The notes: a model not told the origin generated them from the letters alone. DNA of 64,000 nucleotides from Escherichia coli (GCF_016903815.1 NZ_CP069974.1); one strand, 5' to 3'. Shown: positions 1 to 51,329, numbered from the stretch's first letter. Translations and numbers: made by a program.

Positions 1-7
1 CGCCGGT

Positions 8-934
8 GTGGCCTTCGGCAAGCAATTTCCCGAGCAGGGCCCGCTCACTGCTGACAGCTTCTCCGGTGGCGAGGCGACCGTCGTTCCGGCGCTGACGCGG
101 CTCGGGTTTCGCATCATTCGCATCGGCGAAGACTGGTCCGAAGAAGAGGTCCTGGCCACGGTCGAAGACTATTTCGACATGCTGCGTGCCGAGGCGGCTG
201 GGGAGCCGTACAACAAGTCCGAGCACAACCAGGCACTGCGCCAACTGCTGAACGGTCGCAGCAAGTCTTCAGTCGAGCTCAAGCACCAGAACATTAGCGC
301 CGTACTCGATGCCCTGGGCCTGCCCTATATCAACGGCTACAAGCCACGCGGCAACAGCCAACTGCTGCTGCGTAAATCCGTACACGCCTACGTTCTGGAA
401 CATCAGCAGACGGTCGGCGCTCTTGTCGATGCCCTGGAGGAGGTAAAACTTCCGGGTGACAAAACCTACCGAGCGGCTTTGGTAGAACCACCCGCCCGTG
501 AAGTGCTTGTGCGTACCCCGGCATCTCTACGGCAACGCCTACCGCGAAAGTTCGATTATGCCGCTCGCGATGAAGCCAACCGCAAGCTGGGCCGGGCAGG
601 GGAGCAGTGGGTGATTGGCTACGAACAGCAACGCCTGACCGAGCTCGGCCACCCAGAGCTTTTTCAGCGGCTGGATTGGGTGTCCGACACCCAGGGAGAC
701 GGTGCGGGGTTCGACATCCTGTCGTTCGAAGAGGACGCCCATGAGCGCTTCATCGAGGTGAAAACCACCAATGGCGGGGTAGGCTCGTCTTTCTTGGTCA
801 GCCACAACGAACTCGAATTCTCCAAGGAGGCGGGCGATCAATTCCATCTGTATCGCGTGTTCCAGTTTCGGGACGGTCCGCGCCTGTTCACGCTACCCGG
901 CGACCTCAGCCAACATGTGCATCTCAAGCCGACG
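8..934 (+). pseudogene. DUF3883-like domain protein, 3' end interrupted by IS26; 5' end probably outside window
   Basis: ORF 8-961 runs directly into the IS26 left inverted repeat at 935; C-terminal part has the FIEVKTT...SHNELEFS...YRVF pattern I associate with DUF3883; ORF opens on a non-ATG codon at the window edge. Confidence 0.45.
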
Positions 935-1754
935 GGCACTGTTGCAAATAGTCGGTGGTGATAAACTTATCATCCCCTTTTGCTGATGGAGCTGCACATG
1001 AACCCATTCAAAGGCCGGCATTTTCAGCGTGACATCATTCTGTGGGCCGTACGCTGGTACTGCAAATACGGCATCAGTTACCGTGAGCTGCAGGAGATGC
1101 TGGCTGAACGCGGAGTGAATGTCGATCACTCCACGATTTACCGCTGGGTTCAGCGTTATGCGCCTGAAATGGAAAAACGGCTGCGCTGGTACTGGCGTAA
1201 CCCTTCCGATCTTTGCCCGTGGCACATGGATGAAACCTACGTGAAGGTCAATGGCCGCTGGGCGTATCTGTACCGGGCCGTCGACAGCCGGGGCCGCACT
1301 GTCGATTTTTATCTCTCCTCCCGTCGTAACAGCAAAGCTGCATACCGGTTTCTGGGTAAAATCCTCAACAACGTGAAGAAGTGGCAGATCCCACGATTCA
1401 TCAACACGGATAAAGCGCCCGCCTATGGTCGCGCGCTTGCTCTGCTCAAACGCGAAGGCCGGTGCCCGTCTGACGTTGAACACCGACAGATTAAGTACCG
1501 GAACAACGTGATTGAATGCGATCATGGCAAACTGAAACGGATAATCAACGCCACGCTGGGATTTAAATCCATGAAGACGGCTTACGCCACCATCAAAGGT
1601 ATTGAGGTGATGCGTGCACTACGCAAAGGCCAGGCCTCAGCATTTTATTATGGTGATCCCCTGGGCGAAATGCGCCTGGTAAGCAGAGTTTTTGAAATGT
1701 AAGGCCTTTGAATAAGACAAAAGGCTGCCTCATCGCTAACTTTGCAACAGTGCC
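935..1754 (+). mobile_element. IS26 (IS6 family), complete 820 bp
   Basis: Terminal inverted repeats GGCACTGTTGCAAA at 935-948 and TTTGCAACAGTGCC at 1741-1754; internal 234-aa Tnp26 ORF. Confidence 0.95.
998..1702 (+). CDS. tnpA: IS26 transposase Tnp26
   Basis: Protein MNPFKGRHFQRDIILWAVRWYCKYGISYRELQEM... matches Tnp26 from memory; 234 aa from ATG at 998. Confidence 0.95.
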   Translation: MNPFKGRHFQRDIILWAVRWYCKYGISYRELQEMLAERGVNVDHSTIYRWVQRYAPEMEKRLRWYWRNPSDLCPWHMDETYVKVNGRWAYLYRAVDSRGRTVDFYLSSRRNSKAAYRFLGKILNNVKKWQIPRFINTDKAPAYGRALALLKREGRCPSDVEHRQIKYRNNVIECDHGKLKRIINATLGFKSMKTAYATIKGIEVMRALRKGQASAFYYGDPLGEMRLVSRVFEM

Positions 1755-4468
1755 CTTTTTTCTGCCTCATACGACGCACGGGAAACCAGCAGACCTGTGC
1801 CATAGCCTTTTGCCACATCCACATACAGTAAGTCACCGCGTTTTATCTGCGCATTGATTTCCCCTCCCAGTTCAGTAAAACCGGTTCCTTCTGCAGCAAA
1901 CGACTTCGCCTCTGTCAGCAGGTCCACCATGCTGAAGGCCAGGTTTTTACTTTCCAGCACAGGAAGGGCCAGATGAATGGCCTGCTGTGCCGGCGTGTGA
2001 AGCCCGGCTTTCTGCAGACTGATAGCGGTTTCCAGCAATGTCTCACCGGCACGCGCCTTTATCTGATCAGAAACCACCGTAAAGGAGGGATGGCGGGCAA
2101 GTTTTTCCGCAGTACGGGGTTCATCCAGCGAGGAATACAGCCGGACATCACGACCACTGCGGGCCAGACCGTTCAGGGTCGCGTTGTCCATCGCCATCTG
2201 TGTGACGGAGGCAAAAACCGTCGCACTGTCGCTGACGGAATGCCCGGGCGTTTCCACCCAGCCGTTCTCCAGCTTCAGTGCCGTGAATGGTGAATCAGCC
2301 ACAGGCAGGGTGGCCGGTTCAGCCCGCCCCGGCACAACAACCGTCATCGCATCTTCACTGACGGATGCCACCTGCAGGCGGTCACCGCCGGAGACGCGGA
2401 GTCCGGGAATTTTCCCTGTCACCCTCAGTCGCTCGCCGTCTGCCACCGGCATTTTTTCCGGCCGGAACAGCGACCAGCTGCTGTCCAGGGAGGAAATACG
2501 CACCACCTGCGTTTCGCCCTGCGCATCCCGCAGGTTCAGGCTGTGACTCTGCGCTGTCACCCGGTCTATCACATAGCGGTCATGACTGCGTGTCTCCGGG
2601 TTCCACTGCTCCATCACCATCCCCGGTCGGTACATATCCCGCAGATAACGGCTCCGGCTGTCCAGCCAGACCGGTGACAGTGCAGTCATGGTCACCTCAG
2701 GGTGTCCGAGCACGCCCTGCGTTTTCAGCTCACTGCGAATGGCCTCTGTCAGTATGGCCTGTTCCCGTACCCCGCTGACCTGTGCCACGCTCTCTTCTCC
2801 GGCTTTCACGCTGGCCGCAAAATCTCCGGCCAGCCGGGCATAGCGGACATTACGGTCCGGTTCACTGATGATGGTGGCCGGTCGCTGTTCTCCCCCCTGC
2901 CAGCGATATGTGTTCACCCCGGCATCCTTCATGGCCATCAGTGCACTGCCTGTACCGGTTCGCTGCCCGCTGTCGGTTATCAGGACCTGTACGTTATGAC
3001 GTGCGGCACCATCCAGCAGGGTTAACGTCTCTTTCAGGGAGAGTTTTTCGCCCTGGTCGACGATAACGGTACTGCCCGGCGGGAAGGCCATGCCTTCCAG
3101 CAACTGACGACGTCCGGTTATCAGTTCACCGGACAGCCGTTCATCCTGCTTCAGGTTCATCTGCGAGCGACGGTCAGCAGCGATAATCTGCACCTCCCGC
3201 CCCTGCTCCCGGGCCATCATGACCAGTTCAGCCACCCGCTCACGCTGCCCGGCTGCACCGCCCTGCCCGGACACAATGGCCAGCGACGGGCGATCCTGTG
3301 CCAGAACACTGACGGCATCGCTGTAACCGGCCGTCCGGGGGACACTTTTCTCCGGATGTACGGTCACCCGGTTCTGTTTCATGATGTCACGACTGAGTGC
3401 CCGGACTGACAGCTCATCGAGCACATGAATCCCGGACGTGAACAGCCCCTTCTCACGATCGAGGGGGATAAGCTGCTCACGGCTGATGGCCTCATCGATA
3501 CCGGCGCGTGCCCGTTCAATCACACCATTTTCCGGCGGCAGTATGCCGACCGTCCTGGCCAGCACGTCCGTATACGTGAACTGCACTTTTCGTTCACTTA
3601 ATCCGGCAATGGCCTGTGTCACCGCCTGCTGCACATCCGGCCCGTCCTGTGAAGCAGGCCCGGGCGCCTGCGTGCGGATCTCCGCACGCTGATCCGCCGC
3701 GTCACGATATGCCCGGATGTCGAACCCGGTTTCCTTCAGCGTCTGCATCCATTCAGCCATTCTGACTTCAGGATCGACGTGCTGTTTGGATTTACGCGTA
3801 TCCAGTGCCGCCACATCCCGGGATTTCAGCGAGGCGTCTTCACCGACGGCCTCCCGGATAGCCTGTGAGCGTCCGGAGAAGGCTTCCACCGGTACGCCCG
3901 GCATCTCCCACATACCGTGCTTACCGACCACTTCGGTTTCATAACCCAGCGCCTCAACGCGCTGACGTAACTCACTCTGATATATTTTCCCGAACGCAAT
4001 CCGGTTCGCGAGCACGTTCTCGGAAAATCCGGTTTTCCCCACTTTGTCACTGCTCAGTGTCTTCCATTCGCCGTTATGCTGCGTGACATTAGCCACCACC
4101 ACATGCGTGTGTAACTGTGGGTCCTGATCGCGACTGGTGTCATGGTTAAACAGTGCCATCACCAGATTACCGGTCAGCACCGTTTCTGACTGTCCGTCCG
4201 TCATCACCCGTGTGGAAGCCAGCGCCTCCACCTGACGGACAGCAAAATCCACAGCCTGGTTATGTGCATCAATAAGACGTTTATCCCCCCCGAGCATGGC
4301 CATCATGGAGACACTTTTGGGGGCGGAGAAGGTCAGGTCGTAGCCGGGACGATGCTTATTACTGCCATCCTGCATGCGGCTTAAATCCGCCCCGTCCGGC
4401 AGCCTGCCCTCCAGAAGACGGGTAAAAACATCCTTATCGACGCTGCCCTGCAGCCCAAGCTGTTCAGC
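1755..4468 (-). pseudogene. traI: traI relaxase/helicase fragment (about residues 36-947), truncated at both ends
   Basis: ORF 1736-4489 matches F TraI from ...[55 protein letters not shown] onward; 3' end cut by IS26, 5' end fused to a traD fragment. Confidence 0.85.
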
Positions 4469-4643
4469 CCCCTGAACGGAAAAAAGCACGGGTGTTCATG
4501 ACGTCAAACAGCGTGGCCGCCGCTTTCTCACCGTAGATATCTTCCAGCTGGGCATAGGACTGGATACCAAACACATAACAGCCACCGAACTTACGGGCTT
4601 CCGGCAGGATCTCCACCAGGTCCGGCAGTTTGTGTAACGTGGG
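4469..4643 (-). pseudogene. traD: traD internal fragment (coupling protein), deletion remnant
   Basis: Minus-strand translation [52 protein letters not shown] matches an internal TraD segment; flanked by traU and traI fragments. Confidence 0.7.
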
Positions 4644-4809
4644 TACCCTGGCTGACTTTGATACTGCCCAGCGAGAGCGGGAAAATACAGCTCCAGCAGA
4701 TATCCGTGATCGGGTTTACAAAACGCCCCTCACAGGCAGAATCCGCAGACGCCGCAGGGACATGACCGGCGAGAAGGAATAACATCAGCAGCCACAGTCT
4801 TCGCTTCAT
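4644..4809 (-). pseudogene. traU: traU 5' fragment (signal peptide plus first ~55 codons)
   Basis: [55 protein letters not shown] matches the TraU N-terminus, then the frame runs into traD-derived sequence. Confidence 0.75.
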
Positions 4810-5150
4810 TTTCTGCCCTCCTCTGCCGGAATAAATTCCACCTTCAGGAAGCGATCGCCGGGAACGGCGCTCACCCGTGCCGGGACCTGATCAATGCCGA
4901 GGCGCTGGCAGAGCACACCGTTCTGGTCAAAGTAAATACGGCTGTCCAGCGCTTTCTGCATCTCCGGGATACTGCCCTGCACGAGGATAATTTTGCTCTC
5001 CAGTGTGGGCGGCGTCTGGCGTTTCATCCAGGCCACCTGCGCCGGATCATCGCCATTGATGAAATACAGCGTCTGGTTAAAAGGAACATACTGCAGCGGA
5101 TTCATCACTTCACCCTGACGGGCAAACACCCGCCCTTCGTTATCCCGGAT
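4806..5150 (-). pseudogene. traW: traW 3' fragment (C-terminal ~100 codons), N-terminal part deleted
   Basis: IRDNEGRVFARQGEVMNPLQYVPFNQTLYFINGDDPAQVAWMKRQTPPTLESKIILVQGSIPEMQKALDSRIYFDQNGV... matches the TraW C-terminus; the upstream part of ORF 4806-5384 is out-of-frame traC sequence. Confidence 0.7.
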
Positions 5151-7467
5151 ACAGCTGGTTGTATTTTGCGAACTCCTTCGCACTCTGTTTGAGGATAATT
5201 TTGTAGGAGGAGTTACCCCATGCCGCACGGGCCGCACTGGAGGCCTTGTCAGAGTCAAAGTCGACGATGTTCTGTGTGATGGTGATATAAGCACCGGTAT
5301 GACGACGGGCGGTACGGTAACCTTTCTCAATAAACTCACCGACCTTGTAATTTTTGAAGTCCAGCAGACGCCAGCCTTCATCAATGACGTTCAGTTTCTT
5401 GAGGTTACGCGGCGTGCGGTACATCCTGTTCTCGATGTAGATAATCAGGGAGAACATCACCGCAACCAGCAGTGACGGACGGTCTTCCAGTCCGCCCAGC
5501 TCCAGCACCACCATTTTTGCGTCATCCCGCAGGGACGGCTCATCAGAGTTAAAATACTGACCGTAAGTGCCGTTGGCAGTGTACTGGTCAAGCAGCACAA
5601 TCATTTCGTCCAGACGGCTGCGGATAGTCGGTGACCCGGCATACTGCTCGCTGTCACTGGCGTTTTTCAGGAAATCCACCACGTCATCAATACGTGCCCT
5701 GTTCTCTTTGGCCAGCCAGGAGGCCCTGACCGCCTGCAGCAGCAGACCTTCATGCACTTCATCCAGGTTACCGTTGGGGCTGGCCATCACTGACAACTGG
5801 TCACGGACACGCTCCGCTGACTGGTCGATATCGGTGATATTCGCAAACGGGTTAAAACGCAGGGTTTCACCGTCCAGATATACGCCACCCATGTTCTCAC
5901 ACAGGGACTTGTAGCCATCCCCCATGTCGAACACCACGGCAAAGCCCCCGGAGTCCAGCACGCTGCGGATAAGGGGCTGTATCAGTCCGGTTTTACCGGC
6001 CCCGGAGGTGCCACAGACCGCCATGTTGTAGTTGGTGTTATTCATCCCCCGGAAGAAAATATCGATAAACGCCAGCTGGTTACGGTAGGTGGGTGCCAGC
6101 AGACCTGCCGGTGTCAGGGGGTTATCCGCCACTAACGGCATCAGGTTGGCAACATTAAAGCTCTCTGCGCGCTGAACCACACCGGCCTCTTTCAGCTGTT
6201 TAAACAGCCCTTTCCCGGCCATAAAGGGCAGGCAGGTCAGGAAATTGCGCATGTGGTTAAAGCGCGGTGAAATCAGCTCAAAACCGTTTTTACGGAAGCT
6301 GTTCAGGATGTCCTGCTCCACTTCCAGTGCCGTTTCATTATTGTCCTTGCAGAAGGCTGTGATGTTGAGGAAGTAGGACACGACAGAAGACTGACCGGAG
6401 CCCAGCCGCTGACGCAGTTCCCCCCACTCCTTCGCCTCTTTCTCCACGGACGGAAACCATTTGGCATAGGAGGTCTTCGACTTTTTCTCCAGGTCCATGT
6501 ACTTCAGGTTGGCTTCGCTGTGGGTTTTCACCTGGTCTTCCACCACCAGAGTCAGCGTCAGGATGAACGGACAGGAGATGGACAGTTCCGGGTTCAGCAG
6601 GTTGCTGTAGTTGTCGGCCATATTCCACAGGAAGGCGATTTCCGGGTTACGGGCCAGATGGAAATTCAGGATGCGGGCCGTGCTGTTCCTGCCGTTCTCA
6701 CGCAGGCCCAGCGTCAGGTAATCAGCCCGGACTTTCAGGTCAAAACTGTCCTCCACACACTGATAATTCAGATCAGAATACGGGTCCAGCTGACGTCTTT
6801 TCGGGTACAGGGAGTCCGGGTTATGATTAATCATCTCCCCGACAATATCGATAAAGGCCTGTGCATCCACCGTCTGTGTGGCGATACTGGCCCCCTGTAA
6901 CGACGCCCGGATGATTTTCACCAGGTTTTCCATTTCCAGAATGTCAGCCCGGCTTTTTTTCTTCGAGGGAGAACAGTACGAGAAGAATACCCGGTAATGG
7001 CGCAGGGTCAGGGGCAGATTCATCCCCTCCGGCAGCGGAAACTGTGTCGCTGCCGCGTTCATATAATAGGCACGGGTAATGGCGTTAAACCGTTCAGCCT
7101 GTTCACCGGACCAGGAGAACTCACGCAGCCCGTATTCAATTCTGTCACCAACAAGCTGGCTGGACTTCAGATGGATGCAGAACGGCACTCCGCGTGGCAG
7201 TTTGGTGCGCAGCATGTGGTCGAGCGCCTCCACAATGGACTCATTCGCCCCATTGATGGGAATGGCTTCCAGCATAAAGCCCATCGTGGTGTCATTCATG
7301 AACAGACCGGACTCCTGGTTGTAATCACGGTACGGCAGCAGACGGCTGAACTGCGGGAAGCTCATTTCGCCCAGAACTTCATTGGCCTTTGCGGATTCGT
7401 CAGGCAGTTTCAGTGCTGTGACGAGGGAGTTAACCGCCTGAGTGACGGCCTCAAGTGGGTTATTCAC
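5140..7467 (-). CDS. traC: TraC (VirB4-like pilus assembly ATPase), C-terminally truncated at 775 aa by deletion
   Basis: MNNPLEAVTQAVNSLVTALKLPDESAKANEVLGEMSF... matches F TraC; ORF stops at ...KYNQLYPG where the traW fragment begins; no room for trbI. Confidence 0.8.
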   Translation of the reverse strand: MNNPLEAVTQAVNSLVTALKLPDESAKANEVLGEMSFPQFSRLLPYRDYNQESGLFMNDTTMGFMLEAIPINGANESIVEALDHMLRTKLPRGVPFCIHLKSSQLVGDRIEYGLREFSWSGEQAERFNAITRAYYMNAAATQFPLPEGMNLPLTLRHYRVFFSYCSPSKKKSRADILEMENLVKIIRASLQGASIATQTVDAQAFIDIVGEMINHNPDSLYPKRRQLDPYSDLNYQCVEDSFDLKVRADYLTLGLRENGRNSTARILNFHLARNPEIAFLWNMADNYSNLLNPELSISCPFILTLTLVVEDQVKTHSEANLKYMDLEKKSKTSYAKWFPSVEKEAKEWGELRQRLGSGQSSVVSYFLNITAFCKDNNETALEVEQDILNSFRKNGFELISPRFNHMRNFLTCLPFMAGKGLFKQLKEAGVVQRAESFNVANLMPLVADNPLTPAGLLAPTYRNQLAFIDIFFRGMNNTNYNMAVCGTSGAGKTGLIQPLIRSVLDSGGFAVVFDMGDGYKSLCENMGGVYLDGETLRFNPFANITDIDQSAERVRDQLSVMASPNGNLDEVHEGLLLQAVRASWLAKENRARIDDVVDFLKNASDSEQYAGSPTIRSRLDEMIVLLDQYTANGTYGQYFNSDEPSLRDDAKMVVLELGGLEDRPSLLVAVMFSLIIYIENRMYRTPRNLKKLNVIDEGWRLLDFKNYKVGEFIEKGYRTARRHTGAYITITQNIVDFDSDKASSAARAAWGNSSYKIILKQSAKEFAKYNQLYPG

Positions 7468-7626: not shown

Positions 7627-7848
7627 TTATGCATAATGTTTTCTCTGCTTTTCCTGATACGCCTGACATTCAACGCACAACGTCACACCGGGAAATATTT
7701 TCCGCCGGGCTTCCGGAATAGGATTTCCGCATGCTTCACAGAGATAAACAGGAATACCATGAACATTTATTTTCTGGCGTATCCGGTTTATTCCTGTCAT
7801 GGTCAGTTGTTCTGTCACTGAATATGCTTCATCGGCTTCATCACTCAC
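7627..7848 (-). CDS. traR: TraR
   Basis: 73 aa MSDEADEAYSVTEQLTMTGINRIRQKINVHGIPVYLCEACGNPIPEARRKIF... matches F TraR. Confidence 0.85.
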   Translation of the reverse strand: MSDEADEAYSVTEQLTMTGINRIRQKINVHGIPVYLCEACGNPIPEARRKIFPGVTLCVECQAYQEKQRKHYA

Positions 7849-7982
7849 GGAATATTCCTCCCGACATGTTCTGACACGCTACCGCCCATCCCTTTTCACG
7901 CACAGGGCACTCGTTTTACAGGCAGATTTTGAATACAGAAAGCCCGCCGGCATTGCCGGCTGATATACAACTTCAGGGCCAG

Positions 7983-8498
7983 TTAATTAATACGTGGTTT
8001 TCCCCACGCAGACGGTTTAATAACAAAAAACACACTGGATGGCTGATGATAAACATCCTGATTATCAATATAAGGCGCTATCCATAATGCAGCCGTCTGC
8101 TCACCCGTTCTTAGCGGGCGGGGAGGTGTTACCGGCGCAACTGAACTGACCGGAACAATCGTTTTCACTTCCCGGGCAGCCGTAAACAACGGACGTGGTG
8201 CCAGCAGTTTCTGCTCCGGAAGTGCCGTCACCGCAGGTCTGCTGCCGGACGGAGGGGTCGCGGTGACGGTCTGCACCGGCATTGTCCGGAAGTTCCCTTC
8301 AGCCAGGCGCGGCAGTGATGCCGCAACCGGCTTTGCTTCTGAGGACTGCTCCAGTTCTTTGGCCTTCTCATTGGCCTGCTCCATCGTCATACAGGTATCG
8401 GATGTGGTGGCGTTACACTCAAATTCCGTACTGGTTCCGGCACAGCCGGAAAGTAATAACGTTCCCAGCAGAGGAATAAATAAAGAAATCTGTTTCAT
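7983..8498 (-). CDS. traV: TraV lipoprotein
   Basis: 171 aa, lipobox LLSGC, matches F TraV; position between traR and traP region. Confidence 0.8.
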   Translation of the reverse strand: MKQISLFIPLLGTLLLSGCAGTSTEFECNATTSDTCMTMEQANEKAKELEQSSEAKPVAASLPRLAEGNFRTMPVQTVTATPPSGSRPAVTALPEQKLLAPRPLFTAAREVKTIVPVSSVAPVTPPRPLRTGEQTAALWIAPYIDNQDVYHQPSSVFFVIKPSAWGKPRIN

Positions 8499-8857
8499 TA
8501 CCCTTCTCCTTTTTTATTACTCTCCACAACAGCAGAAATTAACTCTACTGTCAGATTTGTTTTTCCTGCACAGGGTTGTCCGGAGACTACTGTATTTCCC
8601 GGAGAAGAAAATAAGCTCATCGACATACCCTTCTTCATCACACCGACAGCTGCCATATTAAAATTGTGCGGCAATGATTCAGAACCGAATTCCTTCAGTG
8701 CAGGAAGTACGATTCTTGTGGTGCAGTTACTGAGAACAGCATTCATAAAATCATCTGATACGCTTTTATCCGGTACAGAGCGTGCAGTAATAATATTACG
8801 CATGTTCATTTTTATCTCCGTTGTTTCTGTTTGCCCTGTCATCAGGGAAATAAACAT
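8498..8857 (-). CDS. small ORF in the trbD/trbG position of the F tra operon
   Basis: Position between traP and traV as in F; identity of the product not verified. Confidence 0.35.
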   Translation of the reverse strand: MFISLMTGQTETTEIKMNMRNIITARSVPDKSVSDDFMNAVLSNCTTRIVLPALKEFGSESLPHNFNMAAVGVMKKGMSMSLFSSPGNTVVSGQPCAGKTNLTVELISAVVESNKKGEG

Positions 8858-9383
8858 GGCATTTCCTGATTTTTTCCGACAGAGAAGTATCTTCCGTATA
8901 AACTTCCTTCAGATGTTCATCTGCGGTTCCCACCCGGACACATTTCATTTTTCCGGGTCGCACCGGATATTTCCCGGTGATCGCTGCCAGCGAGACATAC
9001 ATCAGTGCCAGTGTTGCCCAGAATGCGGTGACCAGTTGCATCAGTGACCGGTCAGTCTCCCTGACATAATCTGCAGCATCAGCCGCGCGGTAATGGCAGA
9101 TATCCTGTATTTCTGATCTGCCTGAAGAATCAGAGGAAGAAAACCAGCATTCACTGACCGGGAACTGTCCGGCAGGTGCTGTTTGTCTTACGAAGTTAAT
9201 CTCCTTAACCAGTAATTTCCCCGGCGTGGTGTTGTCCTTCCATAAAACAAACAGAGCCATCAGGGCCATTGTGGCCAGCGGCCAGATAACCACAAACCTG
9301 ACGACCCACAGCAGCCAGCGAACGACAAACGCCACACGGAATGTCAGTGCATCACCCGCCATTTCCGCCCTCCTTGCCGGCAT
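8796..9383 (-). CDS. traP: TraP
   Basis: 195-aa hydrophobic protein in the traP position downstream of traB; length matches F TraP. Confidence 0.55.
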   Translation of the reverse strand: MPARRAEMAGDALTFRVAFVVRWLLWVVRFVVIWPLATMALMALFVLWKDNTTPGKLLVKEINFVRQTAPAGQFPVSECWFSSSDSSGRSEIQDICHYRAADAADYVRETDRSLMQLVTAFWATLALMYVSLAAITGKYPVRPGKMKCVRVGTADEHLKEVYTEDTSLSEKIRKCHVYFPDDRANRNNGDKNEHA

Positions 9384-10803
9384 CCCCGCCCTGCGGGTTC
9401 TTGTCTCCGGACATAAACTGCTGCGGATTCAGATTGCCCAGCTGCTTCAGCATCTGGTCGGTGTTAAAACCGTTCAGGTGGCTTTCTGCCGAGGGAGGAT
9501 TCGGCACAGGGCTTTCCGGGTTACCCTCTTCCGCTGTACTCTGTGACTGCTCCAGCGCCATTTCCTCCACGGTTTTCAGCTGGAAGCCGTCCTGGAACAC
9601 CACTGTCACTTCGTTGCCCGCACCAATCGGTATCACCGGGTGATACTGTTCGGCACGTTTGATGTAGTAGTCACTGAGCGTCTGTGCGGCTTTCGATGCG
9701 CCGCCACCGATACCCATTTTAAGGACATCGCCGGCCCCGTAAGCGGCTGTGGCACCCAGCCCGACAGCCGGCTGGGAGGCGCGCTCCATTCCCTGACCGA
9801 TACCGTCAACAAATCCCGCGCCCCATGCCCAGCCGAGGATTTTGCCGTTACGCATCACCACTTCGCCCTTGATACCGTTTTTACCCCGGAAGCTGACATG
9901 CCCCTTAATCGGCATATCAATGGTTTTGCCATTCTTCAGGCAGCTGATATTACGGGTGCGAACAATAGCACGTTCACTGGAGACATCCCCCCAGGCTTCC
10001 AGCCCCACAAAACATCCCGTTGCGTCATACGTCTTGCTGTTCGGCATTTCCACCAGACCGGTGATACGCAGCTGCATCGGCACCGTGGATTCATTACCGG
10101 TGACTGAGGCATTGGCATCCGCCCCTTCAATCAGCATGGCTTTCGCAAAACTTCCTGACGGAATGTACGGCAGCGATGGTCCCTGTTTTCCCTCATTACG
10201 GGTAAACACCTTACGCTGTATCCGGTTAGGCACCGGCACAGACTGGTACATCACCTGTGGTGGTGGCGTGACACCATTCCCGGGATAAAACGCCGTCGGC
10301 GGTGGAACAGCAACGCTGCCCTGCGGCGGGAAGGATACGGGGGTGTTTCCCGGCTGTGGTTCGCCTTCCGGCCCGGGCGGTGAGGCTGGCGTCTGCGGTA
10401 CAGGCTCACCGGTCGCCGTGACGGGATTAGCACCCAGGGCTTTTACCTGCTCTGCCAGGGCGGCATTGTCCTGTCCCAGTTTTTCAATACGACGCTGGTC
10501 ATCACCGCGCTGTTTGTTCAGGACATCCAGTTCACGACGGATTTCCTCATACTGCTTCTGCATCTGCGCTGCCGTCACCTGCATCTCTGTGGTGGCATGC
10601 TGACGCACCTTGTCATCAAAGGTCGTATCCACCACACCGGTCATATCCGGCACAGGCTCCTGTTCAGCCACGGTTTCCCCGTTACCGGACATGTCCACAT
10701 CAGACAGATACAGTGCCCCACCAATCGCGGAGGCTGTACCGACAACCACAATCCCCAGCCACAGGTACTGCTTGCGTTTCACAATGGTGTTGATACTGGC
10801 CAT
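9352..10803 (-). CDS. traB: TraB (VirB10-like)
   Basis: Pro-rich middle region and conserved C-terminal domain; matches F TraB. Confidence 0.85.
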   Translation of the reverse strand: MASINTIVKRKQYLWLGIVVVGTASAIGGALYLSDVDMSGNGETVAEQEPVPDMTGVVDTTFDDKVRQHATTEMQVTAAQMQKQYEEIRRELDVLNKQRGDDQRRIEKLGQDNAALAEQVKALGANPVTATGEPVPQTPASPPGPEGEPQPGNTPVSFPPQGSVAVPPPTAFYPGNGVTPPPQVMYQSVPVPNRIQRKVFTRNEGKQGPSLPYIPSGSFAKAMLIEGADANASVTGNESTVPMQLRITGLVEMPNSKTYDATGCFVGLEAWGDVSSERAIVRTRNISCLKNGKTIDMPIKGHVSFRGKNGIKGEVVMRNGKILGWAWGAGFVDGIGQGMERASQPAVGLGATAAYGAGDVLKMGIGGGASKAAQTLSDYYIKRAEQYHPVIPIGAGNEVTVVFQDGFQLKTVEEMALEQSQSTAEEGNPESPVPNPPSAESHLNGFNTDQMLKQLGNLNPQQFMSGDKNPQGGDAGKEGGNGG

Positions 10804-16784: not shown

Positions 16785-16810
16785 CCTGCTTTCTCCTCTC
16801 TCTGGTTTTC

Positions 16811-17392
16811 AGCCCCCATCATCTGTTGAGTTTCGGGAGCCGCGGTTTTGACGTTTTGCGGGGACCTGCCTTTTGTTCCCTCCGGTATTCACCATCACCT
16901 TTTTGAGAACCTTCGCCGCAAGGGGCATCACTGCCACGGACGGAAACGACTGTCCGGGGGCAGACCGCAAAAGTTTTTGCCTGCTTCTGGGCAAAAAGTT
17001 TTGCGGGATGTGCATTTCACCCCTGGACTGGCGGAGACGGTTGTGGCTGTCTTTGCCCCCGGCGACAGGGGCTTAAACAGGTGAATGGCACCGGACAGAA
17101 CAACGGGCAGGGACCCGCCGCAACGACGTGAAGCGCGGTTTGCGAAACGGCGTTGCCCCTTACATCCCGGCGGTCTTTTGCCGGGATGCCAGGAGCGCAG
17201 GCCACGGCGCGACAGAGGCGGCGCGACCGGAACGGTCGCTGCAAGCCAGGGGTTTTCACGCATCGGACCGTAGCGACAGCCCGAAACCGCGCCAGCGGGT
17301 TCGGCGGAGACTGGCAGGTGCGCCAGCAGCTGCCTGTCGGAGTCGGGCCTGACGACCGGATGCCGCCAGGCAGCCGGGAGCCGAAGGTGCGC
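16811..17392. repeat. GC-rich structured repeat copy 1 (candidate Frpo/ssi-type ssDNA promoter), abutting intron copy 1
   Basis: ~0.57-kb sequence repeated at 28596-29177 (near-identical) and 34285-34848 (diverged in the first ~250 nt); sits ~27 nt upstream of the orf95 start on the minus strand; multiple hairpins, e.g. GCGACCG-GAA-CGGTCGC. Confidence 0.45.
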
Positions 17393-19776
17393 GTGCGACA
17401 GGAAGTCGCTTAACGTATTGTTTTACATTGATAAAACCAGCTATCCCATTAGCTGTAGCCTACCGGGACAGGCGTTGCCGGCAACGGCGGGGTCTGAAGC
17501 TCCCGGGACAACGAGAGCCGGGCGTCAGCCCGGGTAATGCCCCGTGAGGGGCTTTACCTTGCTGCAAGCATCATGCGGCAGGAGAGCAAGGCTGGTCAGA
17601 AGGGTTAACACATGTGAACTGTTGATAAACACCGTTATCGGCAACAGGCCAAAGATGCTGACAGGCCTGAACCAAAAGGTACGGGGTCCGGTTGCTACCT
17701 CGCGCACAGGGAGCACATGGGCGCAGAGACCCCCGGTGAAGAGACAGAACCCGCCCTGACCCTCTGTATGTTAAGCGGAACCTGGTAAACCCGTATCGCT
17801 GCCTCACAGGCAGGTGAACCGCAAGGAACACTGTTAGCGGTGCGGGCATAGGAGGACGGAAAAAGCGAATGCCCGGCTGTAATAACCGGGATACGGGGCA
17901 GGTTCCCCGACGCGAAAGCGGGCAGACTTCCGTCTGGTCTTTAATTGCATGAAAAGCTGTAAAGCAGTCAAAAGGATATCAGCGAGATGAATACACACAT
18001 CAGTGTGTCCACGATACCCCACCCGACAGGCTGGCACACCATAAACTGGAAAGCATGCCATGCCCGGGTGCGAAAGCTACAGTTACGGATTGCAAAGGCA
18101 ACCCGACAGCAACAATGGCGGCAGGTCAGAGAACTACAGCGCATCCTCACCCGCTCATTCTCCGGCAAAGCCGTGGCTGTCAGGCGTGTAACTGAAAATA
18201 CCGGTAAAAGGACACCCGGTATTGACGGAAAAATATGGCACACACCGAAGGAGAAATGGGAAGGAATATGCAGCCTGAATCTGTGTGGTTACAGGCCACA
18301 GCCACTACGGCGAATACATATCCCAAAATCAAACGGCAAAACGCGACCGCTGGGCATACCCACAATGAGGGACCGGGCCATGCAGGCACTGTGGCTGCTG
18401 GCTCTGGAACCCGTATCCGAGACCACTGCTGACCATAACAGCTATGGTTTCAGACCAATGCGCAGCACGCATGACGCCATTGAGTCCATTTTTCTGCGGA
18501 TGAGCCAGAAAGTATCGCCCAAATGGATACTGGAGGGCGATATTAAAGGGTGCTTCGATAACATCAGCCATGACTGGCTGCTTTCCCATATTCCGATGGA
18601 CAGGAGACTGCTTAAAAAATGGTTGAAAGCAGGTTACATGGAAAGAGGCGTGTTTAACCATACGAACAGCGGGACACCGCAGGGAGGCATCATATCCCCT
18701 GTTCTCGCCAACATGGCTCTGGACGGACTGGAGAAGGAACTGATGCAAACGTTCAGGAAAAGTGGTTATCACAGTGCAAAGCACCAGGTGAATTATGTGA
18801 GATATGCTGATGATTTCATCTGTTCAGGCAGCTCCCGTGAATTGCTGGAAAATGAGGTCAGACCACTGATTGCAGCTTTCATGCGCGAACGAGGGCTGGA
18901 ACTGTCGGAAGAAAAAACAGCGATCACACATATAGATAAAGGCTTCGACTTTTTAGGGCAGAACGTCAGGAAGTACAACGGTAAAATGCTGATTAAACCG
19001 TCGAAGAAAAACCTGAAGAACTTCCTCTGTAAAGTCAGAGAAATAATTAAACGCAATCCGACGCTCCCGGCATGGAAACTGATAGGCCAGCTAAACCCGG
19101 TGATCCGGGGATGGGCTACCTATCACCGACACGTCGTGGCGAAAGAAACATTTAATTATGTCGACACCCAAATCTGGCGAGCTATATGGCGATGGTGTGT
19201 AAGACGGCATCCCCGGAAAGGATTGCGGTGGATCGCCGGACGATACTTCTCCTTTGAAGGCAGGCGCTGGATCTTTAAAGCCATAACCCCGGAAGGGAAA
19301 ATTCTGACACTCTTCCGGGCAATGGAAACACCGATAAAGCGCCATATAAAAATCAAAGGCGAAGCAACACCATACACCCCCGGAATGGAAATCTACTTTG
19401 AACGTCGTCTGGATCTAATCTGGAAAGGCAAATCAAAGAAGATGAAGACAGTAGTTCAACTCTGGAAGAGGCAGGGGAAACACTGTCCGCAGTGCGGACA
19501 ACTCATAACCAACCAGACCGGATGGAATATACATCACCGGATCAGGAAAGTTATGGGCGGCAGTGACGAACTGACCAATCTCGAGTTGTTACATCCGAAC
19601 TGCCACCGACAGTTACACAGCAGGGAAGCCGGTGCTCACCGAAAGCACTTATAAAGGCTTGAGCGGAGTGCGGGGAAACTCGCACGCTCCGTTCTTAGGG
19701 GGCGGCGGCGCAGCAATGTGCCGCTGCTACCCGACCCGGCAGACAGGACAACACTGCAGTAGTCAGAATCAGAGCA
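17393..19776 (+). mobile_element. group II intron copy 1 (RT-maturase-HNH IEP); 3' boundary approximate
   Basis: Starts GTGCGACAGGAAGTCGC; 555-aa IEP in domain IV; domain V-like hairpin GAGCGGAGTGCGGGGAAACTCGCACGCTCCGTTC at 19661-19694; identity with copies 2 and 3 extends to ~19776, true 3' splice site probably within 19735-19776. Confidence 0.75.
17987..19654 (+). CDS. group II intron-encoded reverse transcriptase/maturase with HNH endonuclease domain
   Basis: RT motifs (GTPQGGIISP, YVRYADDF), maturase region, C-terminal CPQCG...HH...HPNCHRQLH. Confidence 0.9.
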   Translation: MNTHISVSTIPHPTGWHTINWKACHARVRKLQLRIAKATRQQQWRQVRELQRILTRSFSGKAVAVRRVTENTGKRTPGIDGKIWHTPKEKWEGICSLNLCGYRPQPLRRIHIPKSNGKTRPLGIPTMRDRAMQALWLLALEPVSETTADHNSYGFRPMRSTHDAIESIFLRMSQKVSPKWILEGDIKGCFDNISHDWLLSHIPMDRRLLKKWLKAGYMERGVFNHTNSGTPQGGIISPVLANMALDGLEKELMQTFRKSGYHSAKHQVNYVRYADDFICSGSSRELLENEVRPLIAAFMRERGLELSEEKTAITHIDKGFDFLGQNVRKYNGKMLIKPSKKNLKNFLCKVREIIKRNPTLPAWKLIGQLNPVIRGWATYHRHVVAKETFNYVDTQIWRAIWRWCVRRHPRKGLRWIAGRYFSFEGRRWIFKAITPEGKILTLFRAMETPIKRHIKIKGEATPYTPGMEIYFERRLDLIWKGKSKKMKTVVQLWKRQGKHCPQCGQLITNQTGWNIHHRIRKVMGGSDELTNLELLHPNCHRQLHSREAGAHRKHL

Positions 19777-25868: not shown

Positions 25869-28529
25869 GTAGGGTAGGGTACGTGTGGTCTTTCAAGATA
25901 AATGGCGAATATGTCCTGCTTATCTTGAGTTAGATCACCGTTACCCCCCCTCCGAACCGTACGTGCACCTTTCAATGCATACGGCTCTCCATTGCTAGCT
26001 TATTGGGGATAAACTCATTTAGCAGAATCCCCACTTGAGACAGGTGGTTGCAGGAGTATTCTTCCCTTTTCCTGTCTCAGATCGGGTAGTTTTCCGCTAT
26101 GTAACTTGTCGTGGCAACTTGCGCACAAAATCATCGTTTTCCGGCGGCGTGCGATCATCATTAGTTGCCACAGGCTGGGTTTATATCCGGCCTTACGACC
26201 TTTCTTCAGGTCTTTTAGCTTTCTGACATGATGTACTTCGCAGCGCCCAGTCTTCGCACAATACTCGCAGATCCTTGCCCCTAATCGACGCATGATCTCT
26301 GTTGTGCGGGTTGTGATATGTGCGGTTCTCGGTTCCGTATCGACAATCGTTGTTCGGTTGCGATTGACATGTTTGAGTTTGAAAACCTCAATCTTTCGGG
26401 ATCCATTTTTGGCCTGAACGGTAATAGCCAGATCTCCATTATTTTGCCGTAGCGATTTGGCGACTTTATTCACTGAACTACGTCGTTTATTCGCTAGGGT
26501 CTTAAAAAGGCTTATTTGCCATATGAAATATAATTTTGATAATTTATATTTCATGTCCAGCGCCAGACTGTAGTAGTTCGCCAATCCGCGCATTTCCGCG
26601 TTGAAAGTCAGAACAATTTCAGCTTCACTGAGATTTTGTAGACTTGAACGATGTACAGCCTTCACATTCTCATAACAGCCATATTTCTTTTGGTGACAAA
26701 ATTTAGCGGCTATATTGTCAGGAACGAAGAGCTGCACAATTCCTGTGGTGGATCTCCGGAGAGCGTGCCGCCCTTGCATTTTCTGCTTCAGCAATTTCTT
26801 TGCATCTGCCTGTCTGATTTCATAGCCTAAAAAATTAACTCCTTCTGAGATATGGCGGATCCTGGTCTTTGCTTCATTAACTTCCAATCCCAGTGAAGTA
26901 GTAATAAAGTTTCTGACCTGTCTTGATATATGTTCAGCATCTTTCTTCGAGCCGATGACACCAATTACGAAGTCATCAGCATATCGAACATAGTACATAC
27001 GCCTGAAGTTTGGATCGTTCATGACCTGAGATGGTATAGAACGTTTTTCTTCAAGCAGTCGTTCAATTTCTTTCTTTATGGCTTCTTTTTCTGATTCAGA
27101 ATCAGTTGCCATACCGTCTACTTTCTTTCGTAGTTTATGAATCTTATGGGCCAGCCTGTTCATATCTGGATTCGCTCTTCGTTTTGTACCGCTTGTATAT
27201 GCAGGAATTAAGTTCTGTTCTACAAAACGGTCCAGTTTGTCGAGGTATATATTTGCCAGTAAGGGAGAAATTATCCCACCTTGTGGCGTGCCAGAATATG
27301 AGCGATGGTATTTCCAATTGTCCACATATCCTGCCTTCAGCCACTGTTCGATTAATTTCAGGAAATTCTTATCCTTAATTTTCTCTGCCAGTGTATTCAG
27401 CAATAGTTTGTGGGGGATATTGTCAAAGAAACCTTTGATATCAACATCCACGATCCATTTAACTCCGTTCCAGACTGGACGAATAGATCTGAGCGCAGTT
27501 TCACACGAACGTTTTGGTCTGAATCCATGAGAGTGTTCAGAGAATACTGGTTCATAAACCCTTTCCAGAATAATTCTTGCTACTTCTTGCGCCAGTTTAT
27601 CGTCTCCACCTGGAATCCCCAGCGGTCTGGTTTTTCCGTCCTTTTTTGGGATCTGAACTCTGCGTACAGGTTTCGCTACGTATTCTCTACTCCGCAATGT
27701 TTTTGCCAGCTTCTCTGCTCTTTCGATAGAGAAGCCATCAATGGTATCTGTTGATACACCTTGAGTCAGTGCACCTGCATTGGCCCGTATATTCACGTAG
27801 GCTTGCAGCCACAGTCCGGGCTCACACGCAATTTTGTATAGATTACGTACTGGATACCCTTTTTTTGAAGCATCCTCAATTCCATCTAATCTTTTCTCAA
27901 GTTCATCAGGCAGCATTGGCTAACCCTCCTCTTAGAGATTGATGTATCTAACAACTGTCTCCCTTCCCCGCAGCACTGTGAGGCTTTCATCTCCCTTCCG
28001 GTTGATTTATACCTTTGCTGCTTCCGTATAATGCGGACTGCCGTAGCCCATTACAGGCCGACCTTGAGTACTATGGAGACTCCGCTACCATGCTGGGTAT
28101 AAATCCAGTTTAGGTAGTCCCGTAGTTTCACGGTGTGGAGATGCGATGTACTTAGGATGTCTTTCGATCGTTTAACTATTTCATCAATAGCTGGCCCGTT
28201 AGAGTGGTCACAATCAACGTAGGGCGGATTTCTTGTGCTATTACGGGAATAACGCTTCAATCGTTCTGCGTTATTGGTTTCCTGTTTCCCACATAGATCT
28301 CGACTTCAACAAACCCAGTTTATCCATATACATCTTGCATTGAGTGGTGATACTTATAACGATTTCCGTATTCACCACCCTTTTCTGTGGATGCTATGTT
28401 CACCTCTCCTTTTCAGGATCTCCGAGCCTGTTACCAAGCGAGGCTAACCACAGTATGCAATGGCTATACCACTAAGCCATGTTGCTTTTCATGCAACACT
28501 CCATAAAACACCGCGCTTCAACGGCGCAC
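25869..28529 (-). mobile_element. group II intron (LtrA-like IEP, IIA-like) inserted in ssb in sense orientation
   Basis: Minus-strand 5' end GTGCGCCGTTGAAGCGCGG directly after ssb codon 13; IEP 26015-27916; canonical domain V GAGCCGTATGCATTGAAAGGTGCACGTACGGTTC at 25954-25987 (minus); 3' end ...CCTAC followed by ssb exon 2. Confidence 0.85.
26015..27916 (-). CDS. group II intron reverse transcriptase/maturase (LtrA-like) with C-terminal HNH-like domain
   Basis: YSGTPQGGIISPLLANIYL, YVRYADDFVIGV, maturase region, C-terminal CEYC...HH...CASCHDKLH; closely resembles Ll.LtrB LtrA by recall. Confidence 0.9.
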   Translation of the reverse strand: MLPDELEKRLDGIEDASKKGYPVRNLYKIACEPGLWLQAYVNIRANAGALTQGVSTDTIDGFSIERAEKLAKTLRSREYVAKPVRRVQIPKKDGKTRPLGIPGGDDKLAQEVARIILERVYEPVFSEHSHGFRPKRSCETALRSIRPVWNGVKWIVDVDIKGFFDNIPHKLLLNTLAEKIKDKNFLKLIEQWLKAGYVDNWKYHRSYSGTPQGGIISPLLANIYLDKLDRFVEQNLIPAYTSGTKRRANPDMNRLAHKIHKLRKKVDGMATDSESEKEAIKKEIERLLEEKRSIPSQVMNDPNFRRMYYVRYADDFVIGVIGSKKDAEHISRQVRNFITTSLGLEVNEAKTRIRHISEGVNFLGYEIRQADAKKLLKQKMQGRHALRRSTTGIVQLFVPDNIAAKFCHQKKYGCYENVKAVHRSSLQNLSEAEIVLTFNAEMRGLANYYSLALDMKYKLSKLYFIWQISLFKTLANKRRSSVNKVAKSLRQNNGDLAITVQAKNGSRKIEVFKLKHVNRNRTTIVDTEPRTAHITTRTTEIMRRLGARICEYCAKTGRCEVHHVRKLKDLKKGRKAGYKPSLWQLMMIARRRKTMILCASCHDKLHSGKLPDLRQEKGRILLQPPVSSGDSAK

Positions 28530-28568: not shown

Positions 28569-28595
28569 GATGTGCCTCCTTCTGTTGATGTTTTC

Positions 28596-34046: not shown

Positions 34047-34284
34047 AATTTAGCCTCTTATGACGTTAATTAATGAAACCGTAAAGACTGTTCGTGCAGT
34101 CTCTGCGGTGTGGATTAAGCAGGTCCCTGACCTGCTTTTTTCATATCTGCGTCTGACGTTCTCCGGTGTTTTCCTCCTTCTGTTCCTGCGTTCTCATTAC
34201 CTGCCAGCCGGATGACTGACAGAACACATAAATGCGTATTGCCGGAGCCTGAAATAAATCCTGATTTTTAAAGAACATCACCCG

Positions 34285-51310: not shown

Positions 51311-51329
51311 GTAATTGATAACTCTAATG

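What the first reader, a model, noticed from the sequence alone, without database searches (positions are those of the whole stretch)
8..934. Truncated DUF3883-like gene at the window edge
DUF3883-like domains are, to my knowledge, usually C-terminal domains of large helicase or nuclease proteins. Here only the C-terminal ~310 codons are visible, cut by IS26, so a larger accessory gene was probably destroyed or continues upstream of the window.
Basis: partly seen in the sequence, partly recalled or inferred. Interest (0 to 1): 0.3.

Follow-up and report, generated by a model that had tools for sequence, protein, structure and literature searches.

The report
IS26-clipped orf1182 DUF3883 nuclease gene
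The stretch is most of a small, already catalogued gene of untested function (a predicted DNA-cutting enzyme) that travels next to the gentamicin-resistance gene aac(3)-IId on over a thousand plasmids; here IS26 has clipped its last 11 codons, so it is an ordinary passenger and not the wreck of a large helicase gene.

Summary
Window 2-934 (+) is an open frame with a strong DUF3883/NOV_C hit (PF13020, E 8e-22). It ends exactly where a complete IS26 (935-1754) begins.

The sequence is 100% identical to codons 57-367 of a 378-aa stand-alone protein (WP_000080860.1, "orf1182"). This is the last gene of the known aacC2/aac(3)-IId-tmrB-orf192-orf228-orf1182-ISCfr1 module, which occurs at >=99% identity in 1,173 PLSDB plasmids. 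The window edge hides only 56 codons, and IS26 removed only 11. The same junction occurs in about 378 plasmids and is annotated as WP_014837927.1. There is no helicase domain and no helicase remnant.

The protein has three parts:
- a ScoMcrA-head-like N-terminal domain;
- a conserved helical, probably DNA-binding, domain;
- an Hjc-like PD-(D/E)xK nuclease with E257, D294, E308 and K310 intact.

It belongs to PADLOC's untested defence candidate family PDC-S36. Chromosomal orthologues (up to 90% identical) lie in Pseudomonas/Stutzerimonas islands, many next to defence-type genes. In two lineages they sit directly behind a separate 1,700-aa double helicase.

The most likely function is a single-gene defence endonuclease carried as a passenger. 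This copy has lost a near-invariant C-terminal aromatic residue. The finding is ordinary and already known.

The parts
2..934 (+). Codons 57-367 of orf1182 (WP_000080860.1, 378 aa, 'DUF3883 domain-containing protein'). The 5' 167 nt lie outside the window. The last 11 native codons (DYRASFRSLVG) are deleted.
   Evidence: 100% identical to L001 8001-8934, inside the CDS at 7834-8970.
2..124 (+). C-terminal part (residues 57-97) of the ScoMcrA-head-like N-terminal domain (PF26345 ScoMcrA_N).
131..448 (+). Conserved helical middle domain (residues 100-205) with invariant W101, Y113, K150, N153 and Q176. Its first three helices are probably a homeodomain-like DNA-binding bundle.
557..913 (+). PD-(D/E)xK nuclease domain (residues 242-360; Pfam NOV_C/DUF3883 at nt 599-892). 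Catalytic codons: E257 (602-604), D294 (713-715), E308 (755-757), K310 (761-763).
935..961 (+). IS26-encoded replacement tail (GTVANSRW plus the TGA stop) fused to the truncated ORF. The fusion allele is WP_014837927.1 (375 aa).
   Evidence: It is annotated in Shigella and E. coli plasmids that carry the identical junction.
935..1754 (+). Complete IS26 (820 bp). The transposase ORF is 998-1702.
   Evidence: Terminal repeats, ORF, and annotation in matching records.
1755..4489 (-). F-type traI truncated at its 3' end by the same IS26. This is the unrelated right-hand flank, with no target-site duplication.

Best explanation
**Shown.**
- Window 2-934 is the IS26-clipped copy of orf1182. This is the last gene of the well-known aacC2/aac(3)-IId-tmrB-orf192-orf228-orf1182-ISCfr1 resistance module.
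- The intact gene encodes a 378-aa stand-alone protein, not a domain of a bigger one.
- The window edge hides codons 1-56.
- IS26 replaced codons 368-378 (and the downstream ISCfr1) with 8 IS26-encoded codons. The same allele sits in about one third of the plasmids that carry the gene, inside an IS26-bounded unit.
- The orf1182 + ISCfr1 part is related to Pseudomonas/Stutzerimonas island DNA. It is 89.6% identical to a Stutzerimonas kunmingensis assembly, with the IS at the same site.

**Inferred.**
- The protein is a metal-dependent DNA endonuclease.
- Its parts are a ScoMcrA-head-like N-domain of unknown role, a conserved helical (homeodomain-like) DNA-binding domain, and an Hjc-like PD-(D/E)xK catalytic domain (E257, D294, E308-V-K310). 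It probably acts as a dimer.
- In its native hosts it serves as a single-gene anti-phage or anti-foreign-DNA defence. It belongs to PADLOC candidate family PDC-S36.
- On the plasmids it is a hitch-hiking passenger of the resistance gene.
- The copy in this window keeps the whole catalytic core but has lost the near-invariant tail motif [YFW]369-R-A371. It is probably weakened or inactive.
For: **Identity and module**
- Bases 1-934 are 100% identical to plasmid records.
- The gene order IS26, aac(3)-IId, AAA ATPase (TmrB-like), two small ORFs, DUF3883 gene, ISCfr1 is seen in pEGY3, pS44-1 and pCTX-M3. It is described in the literature as aacC2-tmrB-orf192-orf228-orf1182-ISCfr1 (PMC7096625).

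**Truncation**
- The native end compared with the window end is shown.
- 734 of 1,112 plasmids have the native 3' end, and about 379 have the IS26 junction.
- The fusion allele WP_014837927.1 is annotated.

**Origin**
- Homologues of up to 90% identity come from Stutzerimonas, Pseudomonas and metagenomic contigs.
- L001 7835-10620 aligns with L007 at 89.6%, including the IS.

**Architecture**
- Pfam NOV_C; ScoMcrA_N.
- Model with mean pLDDT 88.9.
- The invariant catalytic residues are present in the window.

**Defence reading**
- PADLOC PDC-S36 at E 6e-107 over 276 of 280 positions. The nuclease domain also matches PD-T4-1 (E 1.8e-18) and Tiamat TmtA.
- Neighbours include Gabija-like genes, Mrr, C5-methyltransferase/HATPase, a DUF2075 helicase, YjiT/YjiV, a Druantia-like helicase and integrases.
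- DUF3883 is the proven catalytic domain of the modification-dependent enzyme YenY4I (PMC6765204).
- PD-T4-1 is a validated defence system (PMC9519451 and bioRxiv 10.1101/2025.07.10.664194).
- The family is almost absent from phage genomes.

**Tail conservation**
- An aromatic residue at position 369 occurs in 62 of 63 sequences, and A371 in 56 of 63.
Against: - No experiment exists for this protein. PDC-S36 is one of 145 untested candidates predicted from genes embedded in BREX, DISARM or type I RM loci (bioRxiv 10.1101/2024.01.29.577857).
- The similarity to PD-T4-1, TmtA and YenY4I covers only the nuclease domain.
- The plasmid copies are nearly identical to each other, so they say nothing about selection for function on plasmids.
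- The ScoMcrA head domain has no known function (PMC6224610).
- The target, and the way self DNA is spared, are unknown.
- In the two closest chromosomal lineages the gene is tightly linked to a giant helicase that the plasmids lack. The plasmid gene could therefore be an orphan.
- The actual sequence upstream of this window could not be read. No record in PLSDB or in complete RefSeq E. coli genomes has the exact orf1182-IS26-traI arrangement.
Confidence: 0.7

Rival explanations
1. One reading: the fragment is the C-terminal DUF3883 domain of a large helicase-nuclease fusion (like Tiamat TmtA or Hma HmaA). The rest of that gene was destroyed or lies upstream of the window.
For: Such large DUF3883-ending proteins exist. 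TmtA profiles of 1,300-1,650 positions match the nuclease domain, and HmaA is annotated as a DUF3883 protein (PMC11232893).
Against: - In intact copies the gene is 378 aa, with its own ribosome-binding site and GTG start 167 nt upstream of the window.
- Nearly all of the 120 closest homologues are 378-380 aa, apart from a few fragments and alternative-start calls.
- Pfam finds no helicase domain.
- Upstream in the plasmids lie two small ORFs, tmrB and aac(3)-IId.
- tblastn with the neighbouring giant helicase finds nothing in the plasmids or in the window.
Confidence: 0.02
2. Orphaned effector: the protein works only together with the 1,714-1,729-aa double helicase (SF2 DpdF/RecQ-like plus SF1 UvrD/GajB-like) encoded just upstream in Stutzerimonas-type islands. 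The plasmid copies, intact or clipped, would then be functionless relics captured with ISCfr1.
For: - In L007-L009 the helicase stop codon and the nuclease start codon are 1 nt apart. In L003 they are 93 nt apart on the same strand.
- The two helicases are 88% identical to each other, and their downstream nuclease orthologues are each 88-89% identical to the plasmid protein, consistent with inheritance as a pair.
- Nuclease-NTPase pairs are a common defence design (bioRxiv 10.1101/2025.07.10.664194).
- Homology between plasmid and chromosome stops about 35 nt upstream of the start codon.
Against: - Orthologues of 65-87% identity stand without that helicase in Pseudomonas sp. gcc21, P. nitroreducens, P. 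aeruginosa, P. putida, Pseudomonas sp. TE3786 and Variovorax.
- Many family representatives are about 280-aa core-only proteins.
- PADLOC classes the family under a PDC-S name; that 'S' stands for single-gene is my own reading.
Confidence: 0.2
3. Specifically a type IV (modification-dependent) restriction endonuclease: the N-terminal or middle domains read a DNA modification and the DUF3883 domain cuts.
For: - The N-domain is homologous to the head domain of the phosphorothioate/5mC-dependent enzyme ScoMcrA. There is also a weak PADLOC mREase_IV hit at E 0.0013.
- DUF3883 is the catalytic domain of the 5mC/5hmC-dependent YenY4I/McaZI group.
- One family member carries a borderline EVE (PUA-like reader) domain in front of the same core (P0218).
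- Two orthologues sit next to C5-methyltransferase genes.
Against: - The ScoMcrA head domain is not the modification reader. The SBD and SRA domains are, and both are absent here.
- No DUF3427, PUA, SRA or SBD domain was detected.
- The conserved core also exists without any N-terminal domain.
Confidence: 0.2
4. A housekeeping or mobile-element function rather than defence, for example a Hjc-like junction-resolving or repair nuclease, or an accessory gene of ISCfr1.
For: - ISCfr1 abuts the gene both in the plasmids and in a Stutzerimonas assembly.
Against: - Most orthologues have no ISCfr1 next to them.
- The gene's neighbourhood changes from genome to genome, typically integrase-bearing islands with restriction-like genes rather than conserved repair operons.
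- The Hjc similarity reflects the shared minimal PD-(D/E)xK fold (9-18% identity).
Confidence: 0.06

Closest known systems
orf1182 / WP_000080860.1 of the aacC2-tmrB region (pEl1573 JX101693, pCTX-M3, pEGY3 and others)
   Same: 100% nucleotide identity over window 1-934. Same gene, and the same module in all intact copies.
   Different: The window copy lacks the last 11 codons and the downstream ISCfr1. Its first 56 codons lie outside the window.
WP_014837927.1, the IS26-fused 375-aa allele (e.g. Shigella flexneri NZ_CP020338, E. coli pEcIMT16316)
   Same: Identical junction and identical replacement tail. It lies in an IS26-bounded aac(3)-IId unit and is present in about 378 PLSDB plasmids.
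   Different: In those plasmids the right-hand IS26 abuts mph(A) or other DNA. Here it abuts a truncated traI. That exact combination was not found in PLSDB or in complete RefSeq E. coli genomes.
PADLOC phage-defence candidate PDC-S36
   Same: The match covers residues 98-373 against 276 of 280 profile positions, at E 6e-107.
   Different: The profile lacks the ScoMcrA_N domain. The PDC systems are untested candidates.
PD-T4-1 (E. coli anti-phage system; Vassallo et al. 2022)
   Same: Related PD-(D/E)xK/DUF3883-type nuclease domain at the C-terminus of a profile of similar length (383 positions), E 1.8e-18. It is a validated defence system with a predicted dimeric nuclease core.
   Different: Only the C-terminal 140 or so residues align. 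The N-terminal two thirds are unrelated.
YenY4I/McaZI modification-dependent restriction enzymes (DUF3427-DUF3883 fusions)
   Same: They share the DUF3883 catalytic domain and the design of a sensor or DNA-binding module in front of the nuclease. They also lie in defence islands.
   Different: No PUA or DUF3427 reader domain is present here.
ScoMcrA (PDB 5zmm)
   Different: ScoMcrA continues with SBD, SRA and HNH domains. This protein continues with a helical domain and a PD-(D/E)xK nuclease. The function of the head domain is unknown.
Large ATPase/helicase proteins ending in DUF3883 (Tiamat TmtA, Hma HmaA)
   Same: The C-terminal nuclease domain is related.
   Different: No ATPase or helicase part is present. 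The protein is 378 aa, against 1,200-1,650 aa.

Membership tests
Pfam PF13020 NOV_C (DUF3883) / PD-(D/E)xK nuclease | Score above the Pfam gathering threshold over the full domain model | tested here: met
   77.5 bits against a cut-off of 22.1, covering model positions 1-90 of 91.
Pfam PF13020 NOV_C (DUF3883) / PD-(D/E)xK nuclease | Catalytic E...D...E-x-K residues on an alpha-beta-beta-beta-alpha-beta core | tested here: met
Pfam PF13020 NOV_C (DUF3883) / PD-(D/E)xK nuclease | Nuclease activity | not testable with these tools
   This needs biochemistry.
aacC2(aac(3)-IId)-tmrB-orf192-orf228-orf1182-ISCfr1 module | Near-identical DNA to orf1182 of reference plasmids | tested here: met
   100% identity over 934 nt, and 1,173 records at >=99%. 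Module order is shown and in the literature.
aacC2(aac(3)-IId)-tmrB-orf192-orf228-orf1182-ISCfr1 module | The upstream genes of the module are present in the same record | not testable with these tools
   They would lie upstream of window base 1. All plasmids inspected with the same IS26 junction have them.
IS26 | 820-bp element with 14-bp terminal inverted repeats and a 234-aa Tnp26 ORF | tested here: met
   Repeats at 935-948 and 1741-1754. ORF at 998-1702.
PADLOC PDC-S36 | Full-length match to the family profile | tested here: met
   E 6.1e-107, residues 98-373 against profile positions 4-279 of 280. The window copy ends at residue 367, so it lacks the last 6 matched positions.
PADLOC PDC-S36 | Anti-phage activity | not testable with these tools
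   The PDC systems are untested predictions.
PD-T4-1 | Homology over the whole protein | tested here: not met
   Only residues 233-373 align, to profile positions 231-377 of 383.
   The intact protein is 378 aa with no helicase domain. No helicase remnant was found in the plasmids or the window.
Type IV modification-dependent restriction enzymes (ScoMcrA; YenY4I/McaZI) | A recognised modification-reader domain (SRA, SBD, PUA/EVE, DUF3427) | tested here: not met
   None was detected by Pfam. Only the ScoMcrA head domain, of unknown function, is shared.
Pfam PF26345 ScoMcrA_N | Homology to the ScoMcrA head domain | tested here: met

The most novel reading that the evidence does not exclude
Intact orf1182 is an active single-gene anti-phage or anti-plasmid endonuclease. 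In that case one of the commonest gentamicin-resistance modules, present in about 1.6% of PLSDB plasmids across Enterobacterales, Acinetobacter and Aeromonas, also spreads an immunity gene. The recurrent IS26-clipped allele, as in this window, would be a natural loss-of-function or altered-function variant.
Probability: 0.3. Interest if true: 0.45.

Novelty: already known. Interest (0 to 1): 0.15.

Why it matters
As a sequence feature it does not matter much. It is a catalogued hypothetical gene (orf1182) at a routine IS26 junction in a multiresistance F-type plasmid.

The one useful outcome is a functional annotation for an ORF that has sat unexplained in the aacC2-tmrB module for about twenty years. 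It is predicted to be a stand-alone ScoMcrA_N-HTH-PD-(D/E)xK nuclease of the PDC-S36 defence-candidate family, with its closest chromosomal relatives in Pseudomonas/Stutzerimonas islands.

If the intact gene were shown to restrict phages or incoming DNA, it would be another example of defence and resistance genes spreading together. The two natural alleles, intact in about 734 plasmids and IS26-clipped in about 378, would then form a ready-made comparison.

Tried and rejected
- NCBIfam gave no hit. PHROGs gave nothing significant.
- A single-sequence PDB search gave only E 0.39 to ScoMcrA. A profile was needed to reach significance.
- The literature search for 'PDC-S36' found nothing.
- The search for the window's exact arrangement (orf1182-IS26-traI) found no record covering more than 82% in PLSDB and none covering more than 69% in complete RefSeq E. 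coli genomes. The true upstream sequence therefore could not be read.
- The 12 nt of extra match left of IS26 in NZ_CP020519 and NZ_CP020496 turned out to be a different junction, in which IS26 cuts tmrB.
- tblastn for helicase remnants in the plasmids and the window was negative.
- Pfam scans of ten family members with longer N-termini showed only one borderline EVE domain, so they did not settle the modification-dependent reading.
- I did not run the costly genome-wide locus scan. Eight hand-picked chromosomal contexts already showed that the helicase linkage is not universal.
- An ISCfr1 accessory role was rejected because most orthologues lack the IS.

Full report
**1. The observation**

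Frame 2 of the + strand is open from the first base of the window to a TGA at 959-961. Translation of 2-934 gives a clear Pfam hit to PF13020 (NOV_C, the former DUF3883). The E-value is 8.4e-22, with 77.5 bits against a cut-off of 22.1, covering 90 of 91 model positions at window nt 599-892.

The two perfect 14-bp IS26 terminal repeats lie at 935-948 and 1741-1754, with none expected by chance. They delimit a complete 820-bp IS26 with the Tnp26 ORF at 998-1702.

The 8 bp on either side of IS26 differ (AGCCGACG against CTTTTTTC). The right flank is an F-type traI truncated at its 3' end. IS26 therefore joins two unrelated segments and is not a simple insertion.

**2. What the gene is**

- **Distribution.** Bases 1-934 are 100% identical to many plasmids. 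1,179 of 72,556 PLSDB records carry the sequence, 1,173 of them at >=99%. They come from Escherichia, Klebsiella, Salmonella, Acinetobacter, Enterobacter, Citrobacter, Shigella and Aeromonas.
- **Full length.** In pEGY3, pS44-1 and pCTX-M3 the complete CDS is 1,137 bp, encoding 378 aa (WP_000080860.1 / WP_000080861.1, 'DUF3883 domain-containing protein'). It begins 167 nt upstream of the window and ends 36 nt beyond the IS26 junction.
- **What the window holds.** The window contains residues 57-367. IS26 removed the last 11 codons (DYRASFRSLVG) and supplies GTVANSRW plus a stop.
- **Gene order.** It is always IS26, aac(3)-IId, AAA ATPase (TmrB-like), a 192-bp ORF, a 228-bp ORF, this gene, then ISCfr1. 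The literature describes exactly this module as aacC2-tmrB-orf192-orf228-orf1182-ISCfr1 (PMC7096625).
- **Frequency of the two alleles.** Junction probes show that 734 of 1,112 plasmids keep the native 3' end and about 379 have the identical IS26 junction. RefSeq annotates the fused allele as WP_014837927.1 (375 aa), inside an IS26-bounded aac(3)-IId unit in Shigella and E. coli plasmids.
- **The exact arrangement here.** The combination orf1182-IS26-traI was not found in PLSDB or in complete RefSeq E. coli genomes. E. coli plasmid NZ_CP020519 shares the IS26-traI junction, but there IS26 cuts tmrB.

**3. Why it is not a broken large helicase**

- Nearly all of the 120 closest homologues are 378-380 aa, apart from a few fragments and alternative-start calls, and 119 of them carry the same two domains, ScoMcrA_N (PF26345) plus NOV_C.
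- Pfam finds no helicase or ATPase domain in the full-length protein.
- The gene has its own ribosome-binding site and GTG start, shared with a chromosomal orthologue.
- tblastn with the neighbouring giant helicase finds nothing in the plasmids or in the window.

**4. Origin**

- The closest non-plasmid relatives are 84-90% identical at the protein level. The named ones come from Stutzerimonas kunmingensis, S. degradans, Pseudomonas sp. gcc21 and P. nitroreducens; the closest (89-90%) are unnamed contigs.
- At the DNA level, pEGY3 7835-10620 (orf1182 plus ISCfr1) aligns at 89.6% with an S. kunmingensis assembly. The IS sits at the same site behind homologous flanking bases.
- Homology stops about 35 nt upstream of the start codon.
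- The 3' end of the resistance module therefore looks like a piece of a Pseudomonas/Stutzerimonas island captured together with ISCfr1. This is an inference.

**5. Native neighbourhoods**

- In two lineages (L003; L007-L009) the orthologue lies 1-93 nt downstream of a 1,714-1,729-aa protein. That protein combines an SF2 helicase (best PADLOC hits DpdF and PsyrT) with an SF1 UvrD/GajB-like helicase.
- The two helicases are 88% identical to each other.
- In L003 a Gabija-like gene pair and an integrase are adjacent.
- Orthologues of 65-87% identity in P. aeruginosa, P. nitroreducens, Pseudomonas sp. gcc21, Pseudomonas sp. TE3786, P. putida and Variovorax lack that helicase. Their neighbours include Mrr, C5-methyltransferase plus HATPase, MazG-like plus a DUF2075 helicase, YjiT/YjiV, HNH, helicase IV, a Druantia-like helicase, PIN toxins and integrases.
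- The gene thus behaves as a single-gene cassette that moves between mobile islands, many of them carrying defence-type genes.

**6. The protein**

- **Family structure.** A search of 50%-identity cluster representatives finds 8,116 relatives. The conserved core is residues 98-373. In many relatives the core stands alone at about 280 aa, and in others it is preceded by various N-terminal extensions. One of ten such longer members has a borderline EVE domain.
- **Invariant residues.** In a 63-sequence alignment they are W101, Y113, K150, N153, Q176, G253, G256, E257, L268, G288, G292, D294, E308, K310, T312 and R341.
- **Model.** The AlphaFold2 model (mean pLDDT 88.9) shows three modules. There is an alpha/beta N-domain (1-97), a helical domain (103-202), and, after a less confident linker, an alpha-beta-beta-beta-alpha-beta domain (242-355).

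**7. Links to known systems**

- PADLOC places the protein in PDC-S36 (E 6e-107, 276 of 280 positions). The nuclease domain alone also matches PD-T4-1 (E 1.8e-18) and Tiamat TmtA.
- The PDC systems are 145 untested candidates, derived from genes embedded in BREX, DISARM or type I RM loci (bioRxiv 10.1101/2024.01.29.577857).
- PD-T4-1 is an experimentally selected E. coli defence system with a PD-(D/E)xK nuclease predicted to dimerise (PMC9519451; bioRxiv 10.1101/2025.07.10.664194).
- DUF3883 is the catalytic domain of the modification-dependent enzyme YenY4I and of the McaZI-like DUF3427-DUF3883 fusions (PMC6765204).
- The family is nearly absent from phage genomes: 9 of 50,697 records, all partial matches.

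**8. Most likely mechanism**

*Shown:* this is a stand-alone, three-module protein with an intact PD-(D/E)xK site. It lies in mobile islands, many of them carrying defence-type genes, and is carried as a passenger in the aac(3)-IId module.

*Inferred:* it binds DNA through the helical domain and cuts it with the Hjc-like domain, probably as a dimer, to restrict phage or other foreign DNA. How it spares host DNA is unknown. Dependence on a DNA modification, or control by a partner helicase, are the two live alternatives.

*For the copy in this window:* the catalytic core is complete, but the conserved tail L364-x-P366-x-x-[YFW]369-R-A371 is cut after T367. An aromatic residue at 369 occurs in 62 of 63 sequences and A371 in 56 of 63. 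The IS26-encoded tail puts T at 369. Reduced or lost function is therefore likely, though not shown.

**9. Verdict**

The finding is real but ordinary. It is a known hypothetical gene at a recurrent IS26 junction. Its picture of a destroyed large helicase-type gene is wrong, although a separate giant helicase is the next-door gene in the closest chromosomal relatives.

- Novelty: already known.
- Interest: low. The modest upside is that a defence-candidate nuclease co-travels with a very common resistance gene.

Noticed in passing
window 16805-19654, 28590-31439, 34264-37110 (+); also 26015-27916 (-): There are three near-identical copies of a group II intron. Each has a 555-aa RT/maturase/HNH ORF, and the upstream repeats are 98-100% identical. 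A different group II intron RT of 633 aa is also present. This is an unusual intron load for one plasmid segment.
   Followed up: partly
window 1736-7467 (-): traI is cut at its 3' end by IS26, and the next large ORF is traC. The F-type transfer region therefore carries internal deletions and is probably non-functional. E. coli plasmids NZ_CP020519 and NZ_CP020496 share the same IS26-traI junction.
   Followed up: partly
window 49975-63934 (-): This may be a defence cluster at the right end of the window. It holds a DUF3800 protein (377 aa), a 1,039-aa ORF with no Pfam hit (51371-54490), an AAA_13 ATPase (712 aa, 55602-57740) and a type I restriction HsdR (61184-63934).
   Followed up: no
L003 4763-9907; L007/L008/L009 4810-9999: A 1,714-1,729-aa protein fuses an SF2 (DpdF/PsyrT/RecQ-like) helicase and an SF1 (UvrD/GajB-like) helicase. 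It is encoded directly upstream of the orf1182 orthologue in Stutzerimonas-type islands. No full-length match exists to any PADLOC model, so this may be an undescribed helicase-nuclease pair.
   Followed up: partly
L002 9026-14048 and L008 11875-16865: A Tn5563-like mercury transposon (merR-merT-merP, Tn3-family tnpA, PIN, RHH) lies just downstream of orf1182 in Aeromonas plasmid pS44-1, where it interrupts the first 16 bp of ISCfr1. The same transposon lies downstream of the 88%-identical orthologue on a metagenomic contig.
   Followed up: partly
L010-L012 7430-9699 and L016 5563-7832: In P. aeruginosa and P. nitroreducens the orthologue is divergently paired with a MazG-like gene plus a DUF2075/SLFN-g3 helicase. 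This recalls the DUF2075 association reported for DUF3427-DUF3883 enzymes (PMC6765204).
   Followed up: no
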